From sequence record LT960609: DNA of 44,798 nucleotides; one strand, given 5' to 3'. This DNA comes from Escherichia phage SECphi18. Numbering within the stretch: the first letter of the stretch is position 1; each line of letters begins with the position of its first letter. The position numbers and the translations under genes are program-made. Positions 1 through 44,798 of the stretch are shown here, piece by piece. The notes below the pieces were generated by a model that was given only the letters and a program-made list of their open reading frames with translations, had not been told where the DNA came from and did not search any database.

Positions 1-55
1 GGTGAATAATAGATTGGTTGCAGGATGGGTGTCAACAACTAATTTAAAAAAAAAA
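1..55. repeat. Terminal duplication, copy 1 (identical to 44744-44798)
   Basis: First 55 nt (ggtgaataatagattggttgcagg...aaaaaaaaaa) recur exactly at the window end. Confidence 0.8.
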
Positions 56-551: not shown

Positions 552-2816
552 ATGAGCTTAATTAAATTCGCTGTAACAAGACCCGCTAAAAAAGGCGAAA
601 AAGCCAGGGCGGAAAACTTCCAGATGACCACCGATGAATTTTTCGAATTTATCAAAGATGCGAAAGAAATCTCCTCGGTGCATATCAACAAGACGGAAGA
701 TAAAGCCGAGTATGCGCGCCGCAAGCGTAAGGCCGACGGCATCGTGGCTTATACCAGTGACGGATTGCGTCGTAAGACCAGTGCGGTGGACCGCTCGATC
801 CTGTTCTTTGATATCGACCGTACCGACACCCGCACCCTACGCCGCTGCCGTAAGGCGTTCATTGACGCGGGTCTGGAGCACGTCTTCCACACCACTACCG
901 GCGACCGCCACCCGCTGAAAGGCGGCACGCGTTGCGCCCGTTTCCTGGTGTTGACCGACAAGCCTGTACCGGCGGAAGACCTGGGCCGCGTCCAGTATGC
1001 ACTATTACACCAACTGGGTCTGTCAGATGTGGACTTCGACGATTGCACGAAAGACACAAACCGCCTTATGTACCTGCCACATCAGCAGTCTGTCGTTAAG
1101 TGTCACTACGGAAAACGTGCCCGCGTCCGTCGTCTGCTTCGCCTGGCTGATACGCTGGGAGTGGAGAAAGAGGAAGTGCGCCGCGAACTAACCCAGGGCG
1201 ATGACGGCGTGGCGGACGGAATTCTGGATTGGTGCTTCCAGGCAGGATTCGAACCGCTGTCGTCTGGTCGTGGTTATGAAGTGCCATGCCCGAACGAACA
1301 TCTGCATAGTGGCGAAGGGTCCACCGCAATCATGGTTAAGGATGGCGAGATCCGTTTCAAGTGTATGCACACCGGCAACGAGTGTTGCTCGGAACTGAAC
1401 AGACACCAGCATCTGGCGCTACGTCTTATCGGGATACCTGACCACCTGAACGTCGAACCACACAACATGTCACGTAAGCAAATCGCCGCCATCCTTCCAG
1501 GACTGGACGACGAGGAAGTGGAATCCTGCTATGAACATATCGTTGATGCAGTTGGCGACGGCGAAGAATACGGCGTGTGCACCGATGCCGACCTGGACAA
1601 CGAGCCGGTTGCGCTGTTCAGTAAGCACGACCCGATCATCGAGGGGTTGATTAACTTTAAATCGACCTGGTACATGGCGGGTGAGTCGAATATCGGTAAG
1701 TCTTTCTACGTGCTGGGGCAGATGGGTGCGGTTGCCGCGGGTATTCCGTTTGGCGGTGCGAAGGTCGTCCAGTCCCATTGCTTCTATTTCGATGCGGAAG
1801 GCGGCGAAGCCTCCAACCAGCGTAAGGAAGCATTGCAGATTAAATACGAGCACGACCTGGACAAGCTGCACATTATAGACCTGCAGTCACGCGGCTGGGA
1901 TATCACCAGCAAATCCGGCTTGCGCGAAGTTATCAGCTTTATCAACCGCACCGCTAACGGCGAACCGGTGGGCCTGGTGGCGTTCGACTCACTCAACCAG
2001 ACGGTTGCGTTGCGGTCCGCCGATGCTAAACCGTTCGACGAGAACAACGCCAGCGATATGGGTGAAGTGGTCAAAGCGCTGAAGGCCATCGCGGAAAATA
2101 CAGGTGGCAGTGCGGGCGTCATCCACCACCCGGCTAAAGGTGCAAACGGCAGCAGAACGCCACGCGGGTCCGGCGCGCTTCATGGTGCTGTCGATTCCGC
2201 GTTCTTCCTGGAACAACCGGACGACAACCAGCCCGGACAATTGAACCTGTATCACGAAAAGGCGCGTAACGGCATCAAGCAAGCGCCGCGCGGATTCGTC
2301 CTGCTCAAGTGCAAAGTTAAGGTGGATCTCCGCAAGTCCGAAGCGTTCGAAGCCCACCAGTCCACCAGCACCGGGCCAGACTTCGGCGATGTGGTTGCCG
2401 GTTGGGACGTCAAGCCGATCGCATCCACGCCTCGCGACGAGACTCTTTACCTCGTACCGGTCGCCCTGGCACCGTTCGCCATCGAACAGGCGAAGGCGGC
2501 GGGCAAGGCCGCAGTTAAGGAAGAGAACACCGCCGGACCGCGCAACGAAAAAGAGAAAGTGCTTTATGCGGCACTGGAAAAACTGATGGAAGATAACCCG
2601 GACCATACTGGATTCAGTAAATCGGCAATTGTCCGCCAGGCCGGACTCGCGAAAGGTGGCACATCGACGAAGGCAATCGACGATATGGTCGAGCGCGGCG
2701 TGCTTGGTTTTTATACAGATCCGCACACCGGGGCAATCTATGGGTCGTCGAATATCGTCATCAAAACGAATATACCCATCACGCTTTCGGCGACCGACGA
2801 CGACTTAAAAGATTAA
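552..2816 (+). CDS. DNA primase-helicase (RecA/DnaB-like ATPase with N-terminal primase-like domain)
   Basis: 754 aa; Walker A-like GESNIGKS in a RecA-like core; acidic N-terminal domain with FFDIDRTD. Confidence 0.6.
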   Translation: MSLIKFAVTRPAKKGEKARAENFQMTTDEFFEFIKDAKEISSVHINKTEDKAEYARRKRKADGIVAYTSDGLRRKTSAVDRSILFFDIDRTDTRTLRRCRKAFIDAGLEHVFHTTTGDRHPLKGGTRCARFLVLTDKPVPAEDLGRVQYALLHQLGLSDVDFDDCTKDTNRLMYLPHQQSVVKCHYGKRARVRRLLRLADTLGVEKEEVRRELTQGDDGVADGILDWCFQAGFEPLSSGRGYEVPCPNEHLHSGEGSTAIMVKDGEIRFKCMHTGNECCSELNRHQHLALRLIGIPDHLNVEPHNMSRKQIAAILPGLDDEEVESCYEHIVDAVGDGEEYGVCTDADLDNEPVALFSKHDPIIEGLINFKSTWYMAGESNIGKSFYVLGQMGAVAAGIPFGGAKVVQSHCFYFDAEGGEASNQRKEALQIKYEHDLDKLHIIDLQSRGWDITSKSGLREVISFINRTANGEPVGLVAFDSLNQTVALRSADAKPFDENNASDMGEVVKALKAIAENTGGSAGVIHHPAKGANGSRTPRGSGALHGAVDSAFFLEQPDDNQPGQLNLYHEKARNGIKQAPRGFVLLKCKVKVDLRKSEAFEAHQSTSTGPDFGDVVAGWDVKPIASTPRDETLYLVPVALAPFAIEQAKAAGKAAVKEENTAGPRNEKEKVLYAALEKLMEDNPDHTGFSKSAIVRQAGLAKGGTSTKAIDDMVERGVLGFYTDPHTGAIYGSSNIVIKTNIPITLSATDDDLKD

Positions 2817-2891
2817 ATTCTGCGCGCATTGGTTGCCGATATGGGAATTCCCATATCGCTAAAAGATTAAATTTTGCGTGCATTGGTTGCC
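2805..2891. repeat. Two copies of a ~33-nt unit (ttaaaagattaaattNtgcgNgcattggttgcc) spaced 54 nt apart
   Basis: Copy 1 overlaps the primase-helicase stop codon; copy 2 starts 54 nt downstream; each ends in an ATTGGTTGCC motif. Confidence 0.6.
2837..2858. promoter_or_regulatory. 22-bp perfect palindrome (candidate protein-binding site)
   Basis: cgatatgggaattcccatatcg is its own reverse complement; sits between the two repeat copies. Confidence 0.5.
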
Positions 2892-2976
2892 ATTTTGGGT
2901 GTTTTTATCCGGTCGTATTGGTTGCCGTGTCGTGTAAATATAGTGAATAGTTATGCAATAAAACTGCATAAACTAA

Positions 2977-3078
2977 GCGGGACAAAAAGCGGGACAAACA
3001 TGAGGCGGGACAAAGCGGGACAGCACCCCTGTCCCGCCCCGGATGACGCGGCCTGGCGAGGAGCGGGACAGCGGGACA
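2977..3078. repeat. Iteron cluster A: six direct GCGGGACA copies plus one inverted copy
   Basis: GCGGGACA at about 2977, 2989, 3005, 3015, 3063, 3071; inverted TGTCCCGC at about 3030; non-coding. Confidence 0.7.
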
Positions 3079-3138
3079 GCACCCCAGTCTTTCAGACTAG
3101 ACGGGGTCAGTGGCCCCCCCCCGTCTGAGACTGAATAA
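3064..3138 (+). other. Conserved ~75-nt structured element, copy A (paralog at 19504-19578)
   Basis: cgggacagcgggacagcaccccagtctttcagactagacgggg...ccccgtctgagactgaataa; hairpins agtct/agact and agacgggg/ccccgtct. Confidence 0.55.
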
Positions 3139-3294
3139 AATCCGGGAGATTGCAAAATACACGGCAGCATGATGCGGATTGCGGTCGTTGATGAACTAGG
3201 CAACCAATGCGGGGTGTATTATGCTGAGTGAAAAATGCGGTTTGCAGTTACAGCAGATAGCGATCGACTTTTTCATGCGCGTGATTAATATTGG

Positions 3295-3323
3295 TTGCAC
3301 CCACCCTGGCACCCTGCTATATT
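3295..3323 (+). promoter_or_regulatory. Sigma70-like promoter overlapping two ATTGGTTGCA motif copies
   Basis: -35 TTGCAC (inside motif copy), 17-nt spacer, -10 TATATT (start of second copy); about 30 nt upstream of the 3352 ATG. Confidence 0.5.
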
Positions 3324-3351
3324 GGTTGCACACCAACATGAGGACTGAACA

Positions 3352-3642
3352 ATGAAAAAATTAATCTGGAATTACGCAATGGCCCTGGCGAAGCTGGTCG
3401 AAGTGAAACAAACAAACGGCAGCGCACCAGAGGCGCGCCTGGTCGCTCCGGCCTGGCATGCGATCATGAACGCGACCGCGGGCCTGAAAGACCCCGAACC
3501 GCTGCGCATGGCTATCCGGGTCTTCGCGATGGCGTTTGCCCGTGAGCGCCTGGCCTATCGCTTCGGTATCGGTGAGACGGCAGCGACAAACGTCGCCCGG
3601 ATTAAAGCCCAGCGCGAACTATTTGCCCAGCTTGCGAAATAA
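3352..3642 (+). CDS. Hypothetical early protein
   Basis: 96 aa ORF; RBS tgaggac upstream of ATG. Confidence 0.5.
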   Translation: MKKLIWNYAMALAKLVEVKQTNGSAPEARLVAPAWHAIMNATAGLKDPEPLRMAIRVFAMAFARERLAYRFGIGETAATNVARIKAQRELFAQLAK

Positions 3643-3651
3643 GGGGCCAAA

Positions 3652-3924
3652 ATGGGCCGTAGACGAGCAAAACAGCTTTCGTGGCATATCCCCCTGCATT
3701 GCATACGAATATGGGCGGAGAATGCGGTTGAGGGCGATTCTGTGTTCTGGTGTTATCGCGATGATGTGAAGCCGCTGACACAGACTCGCTACTTGCACCA
3801 GTTCGCCAGGGAGCATGGGCTACCCATAAAAACGTCCTTGCAACCAATTGGCATTCGTATTACATTACGCCGGAAGCCCGCCGTTGAGCGGGTAGGCAAA
3901 CACTGGAGACTGAGCAAATGTTGA
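3652..3924 (+). CDS. Hypothetical early protein
   Basis: 90 aa ORF; RBS aagggg; starts 10 nt after the previous stop. Confidence 0.5.
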   Translation: MGRRRAKQLSWHIPLHCIRIWAENAVEGDSVFWCYRDDVKPLTQTRYLHQFAREHGLPIKTSLQPIGIRITLRRKPAVERVGKHWRLSKC

Positions 3925-13640: not shown

Positions 13641-13662
13641 TTTTGTGTCCTCGTTGTTGGTG

Positions 13663-13698
13663 TGCAACCAATATATGCAACCAATACGAGGATTGCAA
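13663..13698 (-). promoter_or_regulatory. Sigma70-like promoter with two tandem operator-motif copies
   Basis: Minus strand: -35 TTGCAA, 17 nt, -10 TATATT; ATTGGTTGCA copies 13 nt apart cover the spacer and start site. Confidence 0.5.
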
Positions 13699-19261: not shown

Positions 19262-19518
19262 GCGGGACAAAAGCGGGACGTCCCGTTTTGTCCCGCCCTG
19301 TAAAACCGCATATCTAATCTCTTTCATTGCATAAACTCAAAGCGGGACAGGCGGGACGTCCCGTTTTGTCCCACCCCGAAATGTGCATACCTATTCGAAT
19401 TTCGTGCATAAAACAAACGGGACAAAAAGCGGGACAGCATAGGGGCGGGACAAAGCGGGACAGCACCCCGTCCCCACCAGTGCTGCCGCGGGTTTTAGCC
19501 GATCGGGACAGCGGGACA
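19262..19518. repeat. Iteron cluster B: about nine GCGGGACA-type copies with GGGACGTCCC palindromes
   Basis: Units of about 80 nt: tgcataaa, then GCGGGACA, then GCGGGACgtcccg; non-coding block inside the tail module. Confidence 0.7.
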
Positions 19519-19578
19519 GCACCCCAGTCTTTCAGACTAGACGGGGGTCAACGGCCCCCCTCGTCTGAGACTGAATAA
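19504..19578 (+). other. Conserved ~75-nt structured element, copy B (paralog at 3064-3138)
   Basis: Matches copy A except for a few changes in the second hairpin that keep pairing through a G-U wobble. Confidence 0.55.
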
Positions 19579-34467: not shown

Positions 34468-34494
34468 TGCAACCAATATAATTATGCAACCAAT
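34468..34494. promoter_or_regulatory. Tandem operator-motif pair
   Basis: Two TGCAACCAAT copies 17 nt apart in the intergenic region. Confidence 0.5.
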
Positions 34495-34818
34495 TTACGA
34501 ATAAAAATTTGGGTCGCGCGCTACGTCTACCAGATACAGATTGCTGATTCGGTTGCCGTAGTGGCCTGGTGTGCGCTTGCGGCACACAACGGCGTAGCCT
34601 GGAGGAATTGTATTGCCAGTCTCAATAATCCACGCCACGCGCGCGCCAGATAGCGTCTTGCCGTTGCACTCGATGCGCGTGCCACCATCGGCAGTGTTAA
34701 GGTTGCCGATCTTGCAGCCTGTGGACTTCAGGCGAATGACGCCGGTCTTGCTGTCGTAGGAAAAAAGCTGATTGGTCATTGCCACTGAAAAGTCGATGGC
34801 TTCGAATGTAGTATTCAT
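34495..34818 (-). CDS. Hypothetical protein, HNH-like
   Basis: 107 aa; weak resemblance to homing-endonuclease DNA-binding modules. Confidence 0.3.
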   Translation of the reverse strand: MNTTFEAIDFSVAMTNQLFSYDSKTGVIRLKSTGCKIGNLNTADGGTRIECNGKTLSGARVAWIIETGNTIPPGYAVVCRKRTPGHYGNRISNLYLVDVARDPNFYS

Positions 34819-44743: not shown

Positions 44744-44798
44744 GGTGAATAATAGATTGGTTGCAGGATGGGTGTCAACAACTAATTTAAAAAAAAAA
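44744..44798. repeat. Terminal duplication, copy 2 (identical to 1-55)
   Basis: Last 55 nt equal the first 55 nt. Confidence 0.8.

What the first reader, a model, noticed from the sequence alone, without database searches (positions are those of the whole stretch)
2805..2891. Two-copy repeat and 22-bp palindrome overlapping the primase-helicase stop
The first repeat copy includes the last codons and stop of the primase-helicase gene and the second copy is non-coding, so the unit was duplicated or is a site constrained at the DNA level. The perfect palindrome between them is a likely dimer-binding site.
Basis: seen in the sequence. Interest (0 to 1): 0.45.

Follow-up and report, generated by a model that had tools for sequence, protein, structure and literature searches.

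The report
Variable repeat carrying a borrowed hairpin
Just after the primase-helicase gene of this E. coli phage (genus Dhillonvirus) lies a dispensable, copy-number-variable 54-bp repeat; each unit holds one conserved regulatory box and a 22-base hairpin identical to one that is kept, with compensating mutations, inside KilA-N genes across many bacterial phyla.

Summary
A 40-nt direct repeat (2806-2845 / 2860-2899, 88% identical, period 54) flanks a perfect 22-bp palindrome (2837-2858). The window is a complete Dhillonvirus genome.

In relatives the unit is a variable-number tandem repeat. There are from 1 to 6 or 7 ATTGGTTGCC boxes before the constant downstream sequence. About half of 160 GenBank relatives lack the palindrome, and gains and losses recur.

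The constrained part is the box CGYATTGGTTGCC. It is over-represented in the genome, almost entirely intergenic, and sits in or next to early and middle promoters. Here it is arrayed beside an AT-rich stretch and CGGGACA repeats. The Sodalis phage SO-1 GenBank record already flags this intergenic space as 'region B'.

The palindrome is not a private operator. The identical 22-mer occurs inside KilA-N genes, and in other places, across many phyla. In 47 KilA-N homologues chosen without reference to it, the arms covary (91.5% paired; 66 double-sided changes against 23.5 in shuffles).

I conclude that a portable hairpin was captured at a duplication junction and is non-essential here. What binds the box, and what the hairpin does, remain unknown.

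The parts
552..2816 (+). Primase-helicase gene (754 aa). Its stop codon lies inside repeat copy 1.
   Evidence: ORF list; Pfam AAA_25 and PHROG 'replicative helicase-primase'; annotated as such in relatives.
2806..2859 (+). Repeat unit 1 (54 nt): TAAAAGATTAAATTCTGCGCGC + box A + hairpin.
   Evidence: It is an insertion/deletion relative to single-copy relatives.
2860..2899 (+). Repeat unit 2 (40 nt shared with unit 1), containing box B. It corresponds to the only copy in single-copy phages.
2837..2858 (.). 22-nt perfect palindrome (hairpin) CGATATGGGAATTCCCATATCG: 9-bp stem and AATT loop.
   Evidence: Folding energy is -12.9 kcal/mol as RNA and -8.2 kcal/mol as DNA. It is identical to the hairpin in KilA-N genes.
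2828..2837 (+). Box A, ATTGGTTGCC (variable presence among relatives).
2882..2891 (+). Box B, ATTGGTTGCC.
   Evidence: Missing only in L009.
2917..2926 (+). Box C, ATTGGTTGCC. Present in every relative examined, with a G for the first A in phage bob. It is followed by a TATAGT/TATAAT-like hexamer at 2939-2944.
2934..2976 (.). AT-rich stretch. 40-nt windows over 2920-2979 have 30-37.5% G+C against about 55% for the genome. It includes GTGAATAGTTATGCA, which is conserved even in the Kagunavirus St162.
2965..3138 (+). 174-nt element with seven invariant (G/A)CGGGACA repeats and a conserved terminal stem-loop. A second copy lies at 19405-19578.
   Evidence: The SO-1 record calls these 'region B / region A'.
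3199..3208 (-). Box D, ATTGGTTGCC in inverted orientation, conserved inside otherwise variable sequence.
3290..3330 (+). Boxes E (3290-3299) and F (3321-3330), which frame a sigma-70-like promoter for gene 3352..3642. The -35 is TTGCAC at 3295-3300, the spacer is 17 nt, and the -10 is TATATT at 3318-3323.
   Evidence: Both hexamers are conserved and the 17-nt spacer is free to vary across 20 relatives.

Best explanation
The feature is the gene-proximal edge of a roughly 520-bp non-coding control region between the primase-helicase gene and the next gene. It is a variable-number tandem repeat with a 54-bp period.

Each unit carries two things.

(1) One copy of a 13-bp box, CGYATTGGTTGCC. This is the part under selection. 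The same core, ATTGGTTGC, marks most early and middle promoter regions of the phage. I infer that it is the recognition site of a sequence-specific DNA-binding protein that acts as an operator. Here several boxes are lined up next to an AT-rich stretch and an array of CGGGACA repeats. That layout fits a replication origin, or a promoter that fires into one.

(2) One copy of a 22-nt hairpin. It was not made locally. It is identical to a hairpin that is conserved, with compensating changes, inside KilA-N domain genes of prophages and bacteria.

I infer that the hairpin was captured by a copy-choice (template-switch) event that also re-copied the preceding 32 nt. That created the two-copy state. 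Unequal recombination or replication slippage then produced the other states, from no extra unit to about six copies.

In this phage the extra unit is dispensable. Its likely effects are modest: one more binding box per unit, and a stable stem-loop 20 nt after the primase-helicase stop codon.

Shown: the anatomy, the copy-number polymorphism, the conservation and distribution of the box, and the identity and covariation of the hairpin family. Inferred: which protein binds the box, the origin function of the region, and the capture mechanism.
For: Copy number.
- The unit is absent, single, double, triple or about six-fold in relatives.
- Trees built on either flank intermix these states.
- 84 of 160 GenBank relatives carry the palindrome junction.
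- Copies within one genome share lineage-specific variants, which indicates concerted evolution.

The box.
- 18 matches in the window against 3.3 expected.
- 14 of 19 boxes in phage PaulFeyerabend lie in the 6% of its genome that is non-coding, P about 8e-14.
- 4 of 16 boxes have TAnnnT placed 16-18 nt after TTGCNN, against a 2.8% background, P about 9e-4.
- Boxes stay invariant while flanks vary, including in the most divergent members L016 and Ioannina.
- A second box array (34477/34494) also varies in copy number, with 1, 2 or 3 boxes.
- The Kagunavirus St162 has a near-identical box (TTGGCTGC) only around its own primase-helicase stop codon and the next promoter.

The hairpin.
- The exact 22-mer occurs in 63 stretches of bacterial genome sequence against about 0.03 expected from database size (my estimate).
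- About half of these lie in ORFs that share the motif found in the Pfam-confirmed KilA-N members.
- In 47 homologues selected by a downstream peptide, 91.5% of cells are paired against 75.6% in shuffles (0 of 500 shuffles as high). There are 66 double-sided changes against 23.5. Six of nine pairs covary. Slid controls give 29-44% paired.
- The window has no KilA-N gene.
- The donor-type allele is present in 137 of 5426 complete E. coli genomes.
Against: - No binding protein for the box is identified.
- The only obvious phage helix-turn-helix candidate (ORF 212-541) has no homologue in St162, although the box is conserved there.
- The four GCC-type boxes in this region have no properly spaced -10 hexamer, so they may work differently from the promoter-associated boxes.
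- No sequence similarity beyond the 22-mer links the phage to a KilA-N gene, so capture cannot be separated from convergent selection.
- Repeated expansion of the unit (three copies in PNS1, about six in Teewinot) could mean that it confers an advantage rather than being neutral.
- One relative (CEC_Kaz_2018) has a symmetric double change in the core, GGGGATCCCC. This could be read as selection for palindromy within the phage.
Confidence: 0.6

Rival explanations
1. The boxes are iterons of the phage replication origin and are bound by the primase-helicase encoded just upstream, through its C-terminal helix-helix-helix-strand-strand domain. The tandem unit would then be an iteron array whose length tunes initiation, as in lambda ori or phage P4 ori/crr.
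For: - Three direct boxes and one inverted box flank a 43-bp AT-rich stretch and sit immediately 3' of the initiator-like gene.
- The box and this position are conserved in St162. St162 shares the primase-helicase (43% identity) but not the small helix-turn-helix gene.
- The C-terminal 104 aa are predicted as H-H-H-E-E, which is winged-helix-like, but at low confidence.
Against: - The same box occurs at eight or more promoter regions elsewhere in the genome, sometimes overlapping the -35 or the -10/+1 positions. That is not expected for origin iterons.
- The CGGGACA repeats, present in both region A and region B, are the better iteron candidates.
- Box copy number ranges from 1 to about 7 with no evident constraint.
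- The structure model has a mean pLDDT of 45, too low for a fold search.
Confidence: 0.2
2. The palindrome is a functional duplex operator for a dimeric protein. The protein could be a KilA-N protein of a resident prophage or a phage regulator. The flanking repeats would be incidental.
For: - The palindrome is a perfect 11+11 and statistically unusual.
- The same sequence is kept exactly in several enterobacterial contexts.
- KilA-N is a DNA-binding domain (established knowledge; Pfam PF04383).
- The CEC_Kaz_2018 variant has a symmetric core change.
Against: - It is absent from about half of the genus.
- Changes within the genus are uncompensated and confined to one arm.
- No second site or half-site exists in the genome.
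- In KilA-N genes the arm sequence varies freely while pairing is kept. That fits a folded hairpin better than a fixed recognition sequence.
- The phage encodes no KilA-N protein.
Confidence: 0.12
3. The whole 54-bp unit is selectively neutral. It is a slippage or unequal-crossover product in a recombination-prone spacer. It does nothing, and the box copies in it are passengers of a duplication.
For: - Copy number varies from 0 to about 6 extra units among viable isolates.
- The former codons in copy 2 decay.
- The palindrome decays without compensation.
Against: - Boxes A and B stay intact in almost every copy while neighbouring bases vary.
- Rearranged variants (Ioannina with a 32-nt unit; CEC_Kaz_2018) still preserve intact boxes.
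- The arrays expand rather than only being lost.
Confidence: 0.25
4. The hairpin is an RNA element at the 3' end of the primase-helicase message. It could be a stabiliser against 3' exonucleases, an RNase III site or a weak terminator.
For: - It starts 20 nt after the stop codon on the transcribed strand and folds at -12.9 kcal/mol as RNA.
- It lies at the boundary between the early operon and region B.
Against: - No U-tract follows it, and the terminator scan finds nothing on the + strand.
- No Rfam family matches it.
- Single-copy phages do without it.
- Mismatches in the KilA-N family show no excess of G-U on the coding strand: 6 G-T against 12 A-C.
Confidence: 0.15

Closest known systems
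'Region B' and 'region A' repeat regions annotated in Sodalis phage SO-1 (GenBank GQ502199)
   Same: Same locus in a member of the same genus.
   Different: SO-1 is a single-copy phage without the 22-bp palindrome (L004/L021). The annotation does not describe the box, the copy-number variation or the hairpin.
Intergenic 21-nt repeats of T1-like phages (TLS; PMC11447400) and 'stoperators' of mycobacteriophage L5
   Same: These are short asymmetric motifs repeated about 18 times. They are intergenic, mostly co-oriented with transcription, and sit upstream of genes in a phage that has no RNA polymerase of its own. Their function in the T1-like phages is unproven.
   Different: The sequence is different (aaATAGCACnnnTTGnTAAAA). 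The TLS repeats lie about 76 nt upstream of start codons, whereas here boxes overlap the -35, spacer or -10/+1 positions and also form promoter-less arrays. L5 stoperators are bound by a known repressor; no binder is known here.
Iteron-type origins next to or within the initiator gene (lambda ori in gene O; phage P4 ori/crr bound by the alpha primase-helicase)
   Same: Direct repeats lie beside an AT-rich stretch, adjacent to a primase-helicase gene. A second related cis region (region A) lies about 16 kb away, which recalls P4 ori and crr. The comparison itself rests on established knowledge of lambda and P4.
   Different: No origin function has been shown. The box also occurs at many promoters. 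The primase-helicase has no detectable sequence similarity to any solved structure.
Variable-number tandem repeats and quasi-palindrome or template-switch mutations in phage and bacterial genomes
   Same: Head-to-tail units differ in copy number between close relatives, show concerted evolution, and have hybrid units at the array edge.
   Different: The spacer is not derived from local sequence. It is an exact copy of a hairpin that is conserved elsewhere.
Conserved hairpin inside KilA-N domain genes (not described in any paper I could find)
   Same: The 22 nt are identical. The shared unit ends exactly at the CG...CG stem ends. The same loop variants (GGGGATTCCC, GGGAATCCCC) are seen in both places.
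   Different: In KilA-N genes the hairpin is coding (DMGIPIS, or RYGNSHI in another frame) and shows covariation. In the phage it is non-coding, polymorphic and decaying.

Membership tests
Variable-number tandem repeat | Head-to-tail copies of one unit | tested here: met
   The period is 54 in the window. Tandem Repeats Finder gives period 53, 5.1 copies and 96% matches in Teewinot.
Variable-number tandem repeat | Copy number differs among close relatives | tested here: met
   Between 1 and 6-7 boxes precede GAATAGTTATGCA in 24 relatives. The states are intermixed on trees built from either flank.
Iteron-type replication origin | Direct repeats next to an AT-rich unwinding region | tested here: met
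   Boxes A-C are direct repeats. 40-nt windows over 2920-2979 have 30-37.5% G+C. CGGGACA occurs seven times just downstream.
Iteron-type replication origin | Repeats bound by the initiator; replication starts there | not testable with these tools
   This needs binding assays and origin mapping. The structure model of the C-terminal domain was too poor to use (pLDDT 45).
Iteron-type replication origin | The repeat motif is confined to the origin or control regions | tested here: not met
   The ATTGGTTGC box also occurs at eight or more other intergenic or promoter sites. The CGGGACA repeats do meet this criterion; they occur in regions A and B plus two isolated sites.
Sigma-70 promoter | -35 and -10 hexamers 16-18 nt apart | tested here: not met
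   None is found for boxes A, B and D. Box C has a TATAGT only 11-15 nt away. Boxes E and F do form TTGCAC-N17-TATATT, with conserved hexamers and a variable spacer.
Intrinsic terminator | G+C-rich hairpin followed directly by a T-run | tested here: not met
   CTAAAAGATT follows the hairpin. No + strand terminator-like site is found in 2400-3700.
Palindromic operator of a dimeric regulator | Symmetry maintained by selection; usually more than one site per regulon | tested here: not met
   Left-arm changes are uncompensated in 5 of 11 two-copy genomes. The site is unique in the genome. It is absent in about half of the relatives.
L5-type stoperators / T1-type intergenic repeats | Many copies of an asymmetric motif, intergenic, oriented with transcription | tested here: met
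   18 matches against 3.3 expected. 14 of 19 are non-coding. By my reading of gene directions, 13 of 18 are co-oriented with local transcription.
L5-type stoperators / T1-type intergenic repeats | Bound by a phage repressor that blocks RNA polymerase | not testable with these tools
   The candidate helix-turn-helix protein (ORF 212-541) is untested.
KilA-N-gene hairpin (provisional family defined here) | CG-N5-GG-AATT-CC-N5-CG with complementary arms | tested here: met
   2837-2858 fits exactly and is identical to the enterobacterial form.
KilA-N-gene hairpin (provisional family defined here) | Located in the KilA-N domain coding sequence, between the L..LS helix and the ..KGG..QGTW motif | tested here: not met
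   The window has no KilA-N gene. The phage copy is non-coding. The frame after the stop codon reads ILRALVADMGIPISLKD*, but the 53-nt period in Teewinot argues against a coding constraint.
Rfam RNA families | Match to a curated covariance model | tested here: not met
   No hit at gathering threshold in the whole window. Only chance-level hits appear in 2780-3360. Nothing covers the hairpin in a KilA-N locus.

The most novel reading that the evidence does not exclude
The 22-nt hairpin (CG-N5-GG-AATT-CC-N5-CG) is a selected, portable nucleic-acid element. It normally lives inside the coding sequence of KilA-N genes in many bacterial phyla and in phages, where amino-acid pairs covary to keep the stem. 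It can move, or be recruited, as an exact stem-to-stem unit into unrelated places. On this reading the Dhillonvirus copy is not a passive scrap. It would be an active site, for example a target or decoy for a hairpin-recognising enzyme or for prophage KilA-N proteins. That would explain why the unit has been amplified to 3-6 copies in some phages.
Probability: 0.25. Interest if true: 0.75.

Novelty: new variant of a known kind. Interest (0 to 1): 0.5.

Why it matters
For the phage itself the result is mostly clarifying. The repeat at the primase-helicase stop codon is a dispensable, unstable duplication. Anyone engineering or comparing Dhillonviruses (BASEL collection phages, therapy candidates) should expect length variation here.

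Two uncharacterised cis elements are more useful:
- The ATTGGTTGC box marks the early and middle promoters, and its arrays change copy number at two or more loci.
- The CGGGACA-repeat elements in regions A and B are the best candidates for the unknown replication origin.

The unexpected part is the hairpin. A 22-nt stem-loop is embedded in a protein-coding domain (KilA-N). It is kept across phyla by compensatory changes that alter the protein sequence, it is read in two different frames in two subfamilies, and it is occasionally found outside the gene. If confirmed, this is a clear case of a nucleic-acid structure constraining protein evolution in a widespread mobile gene family. It also offers a handle on what these poorly understood KilA-N genes do.

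Tried and rejected
- Chance: rejected for both the repeat and the palindrome.
- Intrinsic terminator: rejected.
- Known RNA family or tRNA: none found.
- Mobile element with a target-site duplication: a 32-bp duplication around a 22-bp insert fits no transposon class I know. It was not pursued further.
- EcoRI-site avoidance or relevance: GAATTC occurs 7 times against about 9 expected, so nothing special.
- Local snap-back origin of the palindrome: made very unlikely by its exact identity to the KilA-N hairpin. The corresponding flank in single-copy phages reads ATTTTGGGTG or ATTTTGAGTG, not GATATGGGAA.
- Hidden homology between the phage flanks and KilA-N gene flanks: none convincing by eye.
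- Helix-turn-helix protein 212-541 as a conserved box binder: weakened, because St162 keeps a near-identical box but has no homologue.
- Structure of the primase-helicase C-terminal domain: the single-sequence AlphaFold model was too poor (pLDDT 45) for a fold search. A homologue search with that domain returned only one partial protein. No solved-structure or Pfam hit for the domain.
- RNA structure in the 174-nt region A/B element: no covariation. The pairs are invariant or the repeats are conserved as sequence, so it looks like a set of DNA-level protein sites.
- GC skew: it follows transcription direction only and gives no origin signal.
- Literature: nothing on Dhillonvirus promoters, origin or this box. 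Nothing on a palindrome in KilA-N genes.
- 'Many independent contexts' of the exact 22-mer in viral contigs: mostly one lineage. About 84 of 120 matches lie upstream of hok/sok in lambdoid prophages. That context looks like a truncated KilA-N gene, because an intact KilA-N gene sits next to hok/sok in phage 673R7.
Full report
**What the window is.** The window is a complete genome of a Dhillonvirus, an HK578/SO-1-like E. coli siphophage. Its first 55 bases repeat at the end, which is an assembly overlap. 160 GenBank phage records match the region 2300-3400. Gene order matches phage PaulFeyerabend. A divergent promoter region lies at the window ends. A rightward operon starts with a 109-aa helix-turn-helix protein (ORF 212-541) and the 754-aa primase-helicase (552-2816).

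**Checking the observation.**
- The direct repeat is 40 nt long (2806-2845 / 2860-2899), with 35 of 40 bases identical and a period of 54.
- The palindrome CGATATGGGAATTCCCATATCG (2837-2858) is a perfect 11+11.
- It is the longest perfect palindrome in the genome. None of 300 simulated genomes reached that length.
- The repeat overlaps the palindrome's left arm, so only AATTCCCATATCGC is unique to the spacer.

**The unit is a variable-number tandem repeat.** I retrieved 16 related viral contigs and 10 Dhillonvirus GenBank records. The states found are listed below.

| State | Example genomes |
|---|---|
| Box B deleted as well, only box C left | L009 |
| Single copy, no palindrome | SO-1, Psq-1, L007, L008, L010, L012-L014, L016 |
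| Two copies plus one palindrome | window, PaulFeyerabend, CS16, bob, Opt212 and others |
| Two copies with a 32-nt unit, without the right arm of the palindrome | Ioannina |
| Rearranged form with a TGGGGATCCCCA core | CEC_Kaz_2018 |
| Three copies, two palindromes | PNS1 |
| About six copies, period 53 | Teewinot |

- A 57-nt probe across the palindrome junction is covered in 84 of the 160 related records.
- Alignment spans show that HK578, SSL-2009a, EK99P-1 and YD-2008.s are also 54-56 nt shorter at this point.
- Neighbour-joining trees built on either flank intermix the states, so gains and losses recur.
- Copies within one genome share lineage-specific variants, which indicates concerted evolution.

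**Which part of the unit is constrained.**
- In copy 2, the bases that were the codons AAA GAT in copy 1 vary freely. In copy 1 only synonymous positions vary.
- The box ATTGGTTGCC is invariant in both copies, apart from one T-to-C variant.
- Boxes B, C, D, E and F stay fixed across 20 relatives while the sequence around them varies. B and C are intact in the most divergent members L016 and Ioannina.

**What the box is.**
- ATTGGTTGC[AC] has 18 matches in the window against 3.3 expected.
- In PaulFeyerabend, 14 of 19 copies lie in the 6% of the genome that is non-coding (P about 8e-14).
- The boxes sit upstream of the early and middle transcription units, often as tandem pairs spaced 12-31 nt apart.
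- Four of 16 are followed by TAnnnT at the spacing expected if TTGCNN is a -35 hexamer (background 2.8%, P about 9e-4).
- At boxes E and F the alignment shows conserved TTGCAY and TAKATT hexamers separated by a freely varying 17-nt spacer. That is the signature of a real promoter.
- Other boxes lie in the spacer or over the -10/+1 positions. The box is therefore more than a -35 element. An operator for a regulator is the simplest reading.
- A second box array (34477/34494, 17-nt unit) has 2 boxes here, 3 in PaulFeyerabend and 1 in Teewinot. Copy-number instability is thus a property of box arrays in general.
- The closest published analogue is the set of 18 intergenic 21-nt repeats in T1-like phages, whose function is still open (PMC11447400).

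**The surrounding region.**
- The four boxes that end in GCC (A, B and C direct, D inverted) occur only here and have no properly spaced -10 hexamer.
- They bracket an AT-rich stretch (40-nt windows over 2920-2979 have 30-37.5% G+C).
- They also bracket a 174-nt element with seven invariant CGGGACA repeats and a conserved terminal stem-loop. A second copy of that element, 80% identical, lies just before the tape-measure gene.
- The layout is conserved in the distant Kagunavirus St162, whose primase-helicase is 43% identical. There the box ATGTTGGCTGC occurs three times, only around the primase-helicase stop codon and the next promoter. GAATAGTTATG occurs twice, and G-rich repeats follow.
- St162 lacks a homologue of the 109-aa helix-turn-helix protein. 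The binder is therefore either another conserved protein, such as the primase-helicase, or a host factor.
- I could not resolve this. The C-terminal domain model is low-confidence, and no solved or curated relative exists.
- An origin of replication with transcriptional control is the best guess for region B, but it is an inference.

**The palindrome is not local.**
- Within the genus it is perfect in 6 of 11 two-copy genomes and has uncompensated left-arm or loop changes in the others.
- Its half-site is absent from the rest of the genome.
- The same 22-23 nt turned up in unrelated phage records.
- A scan of 185,579 species genomes found the exact 22-mer in 63 stretches, against a chance expectation of about 0.03 calculated from the database size. 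The hosts range from cyanobacteria to Bacteroidota, Bacillota, spirochaetes and several proteobacterial classes.
- About half of these sit in one protein family, where the 22-mer encodes DMGIPIS. About seven Saprospiraceae-type and related homologues have the same 22-mer at the equivalent place but in another frame, encoding RYGNSHI.
- Pfam confirms the KilA-N domain in three members of the first subfamily and one of the second.

**An unbiased test of the hairpin.** I fetched 80 metagenomic homologues using only peptide patterns that lie downstream of the hairpin (QGTWVHP and a second motif).
- In 47 distinct sequence contexts, the homologous 22 nt have 11 of 11 complementary pairs in 18 cases, 10 of 11 in 11 cases and 9 of 11 in 14 cases.
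- The arms differ between sequences. Examples are CGAAACGGGAATTCCCGTTTCG, CGAGGTCGGAATTCCGACCTCG, CGTTACGGGAATTCCCGTAACG and CGATATCGGTATACCGATATCG.
- For a 9-bp stem, 91.5% of cells are paired against 75.6% in shuffles (0 of 500 shuffles as high).
- There are 66 double-sided changes against 23.5 in shuffles (0 of 500).
- The covariation score is 0.404 against 0.14 in shuffles. Slid controls score 0.03-0.07.
- Six of nine pairs covary, and one pair alternates G-C and C-G without a single break.
- Synonymous sites in the flanking codons vary freely, whereas the hairpin keeps even the rare ATA codon.
- The central four bases vary without compensation, as a loop would.
- Mismatches show no G-U bias on either strand, so the data do not decide between RNA and DNA.
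- No Rfam family covers the hairpin, and I found no paper describing it.

**Linking the hairpin back to the phage.**
- The phage has no KilA-N gene and no second hairpin of this class.
- The shared sequence ends exactly at the CG...CG stem ends.
- The loop variants seen in Dhillonviruses (GGGGATTCCC, GGGAATCCCC) are the ones common in enterobacterial KilA-N genes.
- The donor-type KilA-N allele is present in 137 of 5426 complete E. coli genomes.
- A local snap-back origin would require the phage flank to have matched 11 specific bases by chance (about 2e-7), and single-copy phages have a different sequence there.
- I therefore favour capture of the hairpin during a copy-choice event that also re-copied the preceding 32 nt. 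Microhomology at T(T/A)TGGG may have helped.
- Teewinot and CEC_Kaz_2018 carry hybrid left arms (CATTTTGGG...). These are expected from unequal exchange between the spacer and the downstream flank.
- Most other exact matches in viral contigs are a single lineage: a likely truncated KilA-N gene next to a hok/sok locus in lambdoid prophages. The number of truly independent 'escaped' copies is therefore modest, at perhaps 15-25 contexts that I did not examine one by one.

**Verdict.**
- The duplication reading is right.
- The 'dimer-binding palindrome' reading is not supported.
- The repeat is an unstable, dispensable duplication in an already-noticed repeat region, so the finding itself is ordinary.
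- It led to two things that are worth follow-up. One is an uncharacterised regulatory box system together with candidate origin elements in Dhillonviruses. The other is a covariation-supported hairpin embedded in KilA-N genes across phyla, of which the phage palindrome is an exact extragenic copy.

Noticed in passing
Loci L176-L255 (metagenome KilA-N homologues), about positions 215-236 of each; also L031 2501-2524 and L033-L095: A 22-nt hairpin (CG-N5-GG-AATT-CC-N5-CG) is embedded in the coding sequence of the KilA-N domain across many phyla. It shows strong covariation: amino-acid pairs change together to keep the stem. Two subfamilies read the same 22-mer in different frames (DMGIPIS and RYGNSHI). 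I found no description of it in the literature.
   Followed up: partly
window 2965-3138 and 19405-19578 (also 19262-19380): A 174-nt element is present twice (80% identical) on the + strand, once after the primase-helicase gene and once just before the tape-measure gene. It has seven invariant (G/A)CGGGACA repeats and an invariant stem-loop, CAGTCTTTCAGACTAGACGGGGG..CCCCCCTCGTCTGAGACTG, with a variable loop. There is no covariation, so it looks like DNA-level iterons. It is a candidate origin or cis-replication element.
   Followed up: partly
window 2951-2971: The 21-bp sequence TTATGCA-ATAAAAC-TGCATAA appears as its exact reverse complement (TTATGCA-GTTTTAT-TGCATAA) in several relatives (CS16, L005, L006, L012, L015, L018, PNS1). 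This is a small inversion between 7-bp inverted repeats, and it is polymorphic in the genus.
   Followed up: no
window 34477-34503 (- strand); L019 26958-27000; L020 25401: A second ATTGGTTGCA box array, with a 17-nt unit, lies upstream of a leftward gene. It has 2 boxes here, 3 in PaulFeyerabend and 1 in Teewinot, so box arrays are generally unstable in copy number.
   Followed up: partly
window 3318-3338 (+) and 13655-13675 (-): The identical 21-mer TATATTGGTTGCACACCAACA (-10 hexamer, box and 5' leader) precedes two unrelated genes on opposite strands. A similar leader, ACACCAACAGAGGA, follows a promoter in the Kagunavirus St162.
   Followed up: no
L023 (Salmonella phage St162) 12640-13000: A distant relative keeps the same architecture at the end of its primase-helicase gene: a 15-bp perfect inverted repeat of the box (one arm inside the gene), GAATAGTTATG twice, and GGGGGAGA repeats with hairpins.
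   Followed up: partly
L046 2527-2705 (Alcaligenaceae MAG); also L071, L082, L090: Clusters of different 22-24-bp palindromes share a GGAATTC(C) core within 180 bp, including the exact phage 22-mer. Their nature is unknown.
   Followed up: no
L031 3051-3221 and L032 2570-2719: A hok/sok toxin-antitoxin locus (Rfam sok, 102-104 bits) lies next to the KilA-N gene in phage 673R7. It lies 46 nt from the isolated hairpin in PPompW prophages, which suggests that the PPompW copy is a remnant of a truncated KilA-N gene.
   Followed up: partly
window 1-55 and 44744-44798: An exact 55-nt terminal duplication, typical of a circular assembly overlap. The real genome length is 44,743 bp.
   Followed up: no
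window 2817-2870: Read in the primase-helicase frame, the sequence after the TAA stop encodes ILRALVADMGIPISLKD followed by a stop, so it ends with the same LKD-stop as the gene. This is probably a coincidence of the 54-nt period, because Teewinot has a 53-nt period.
   Followed up: partly
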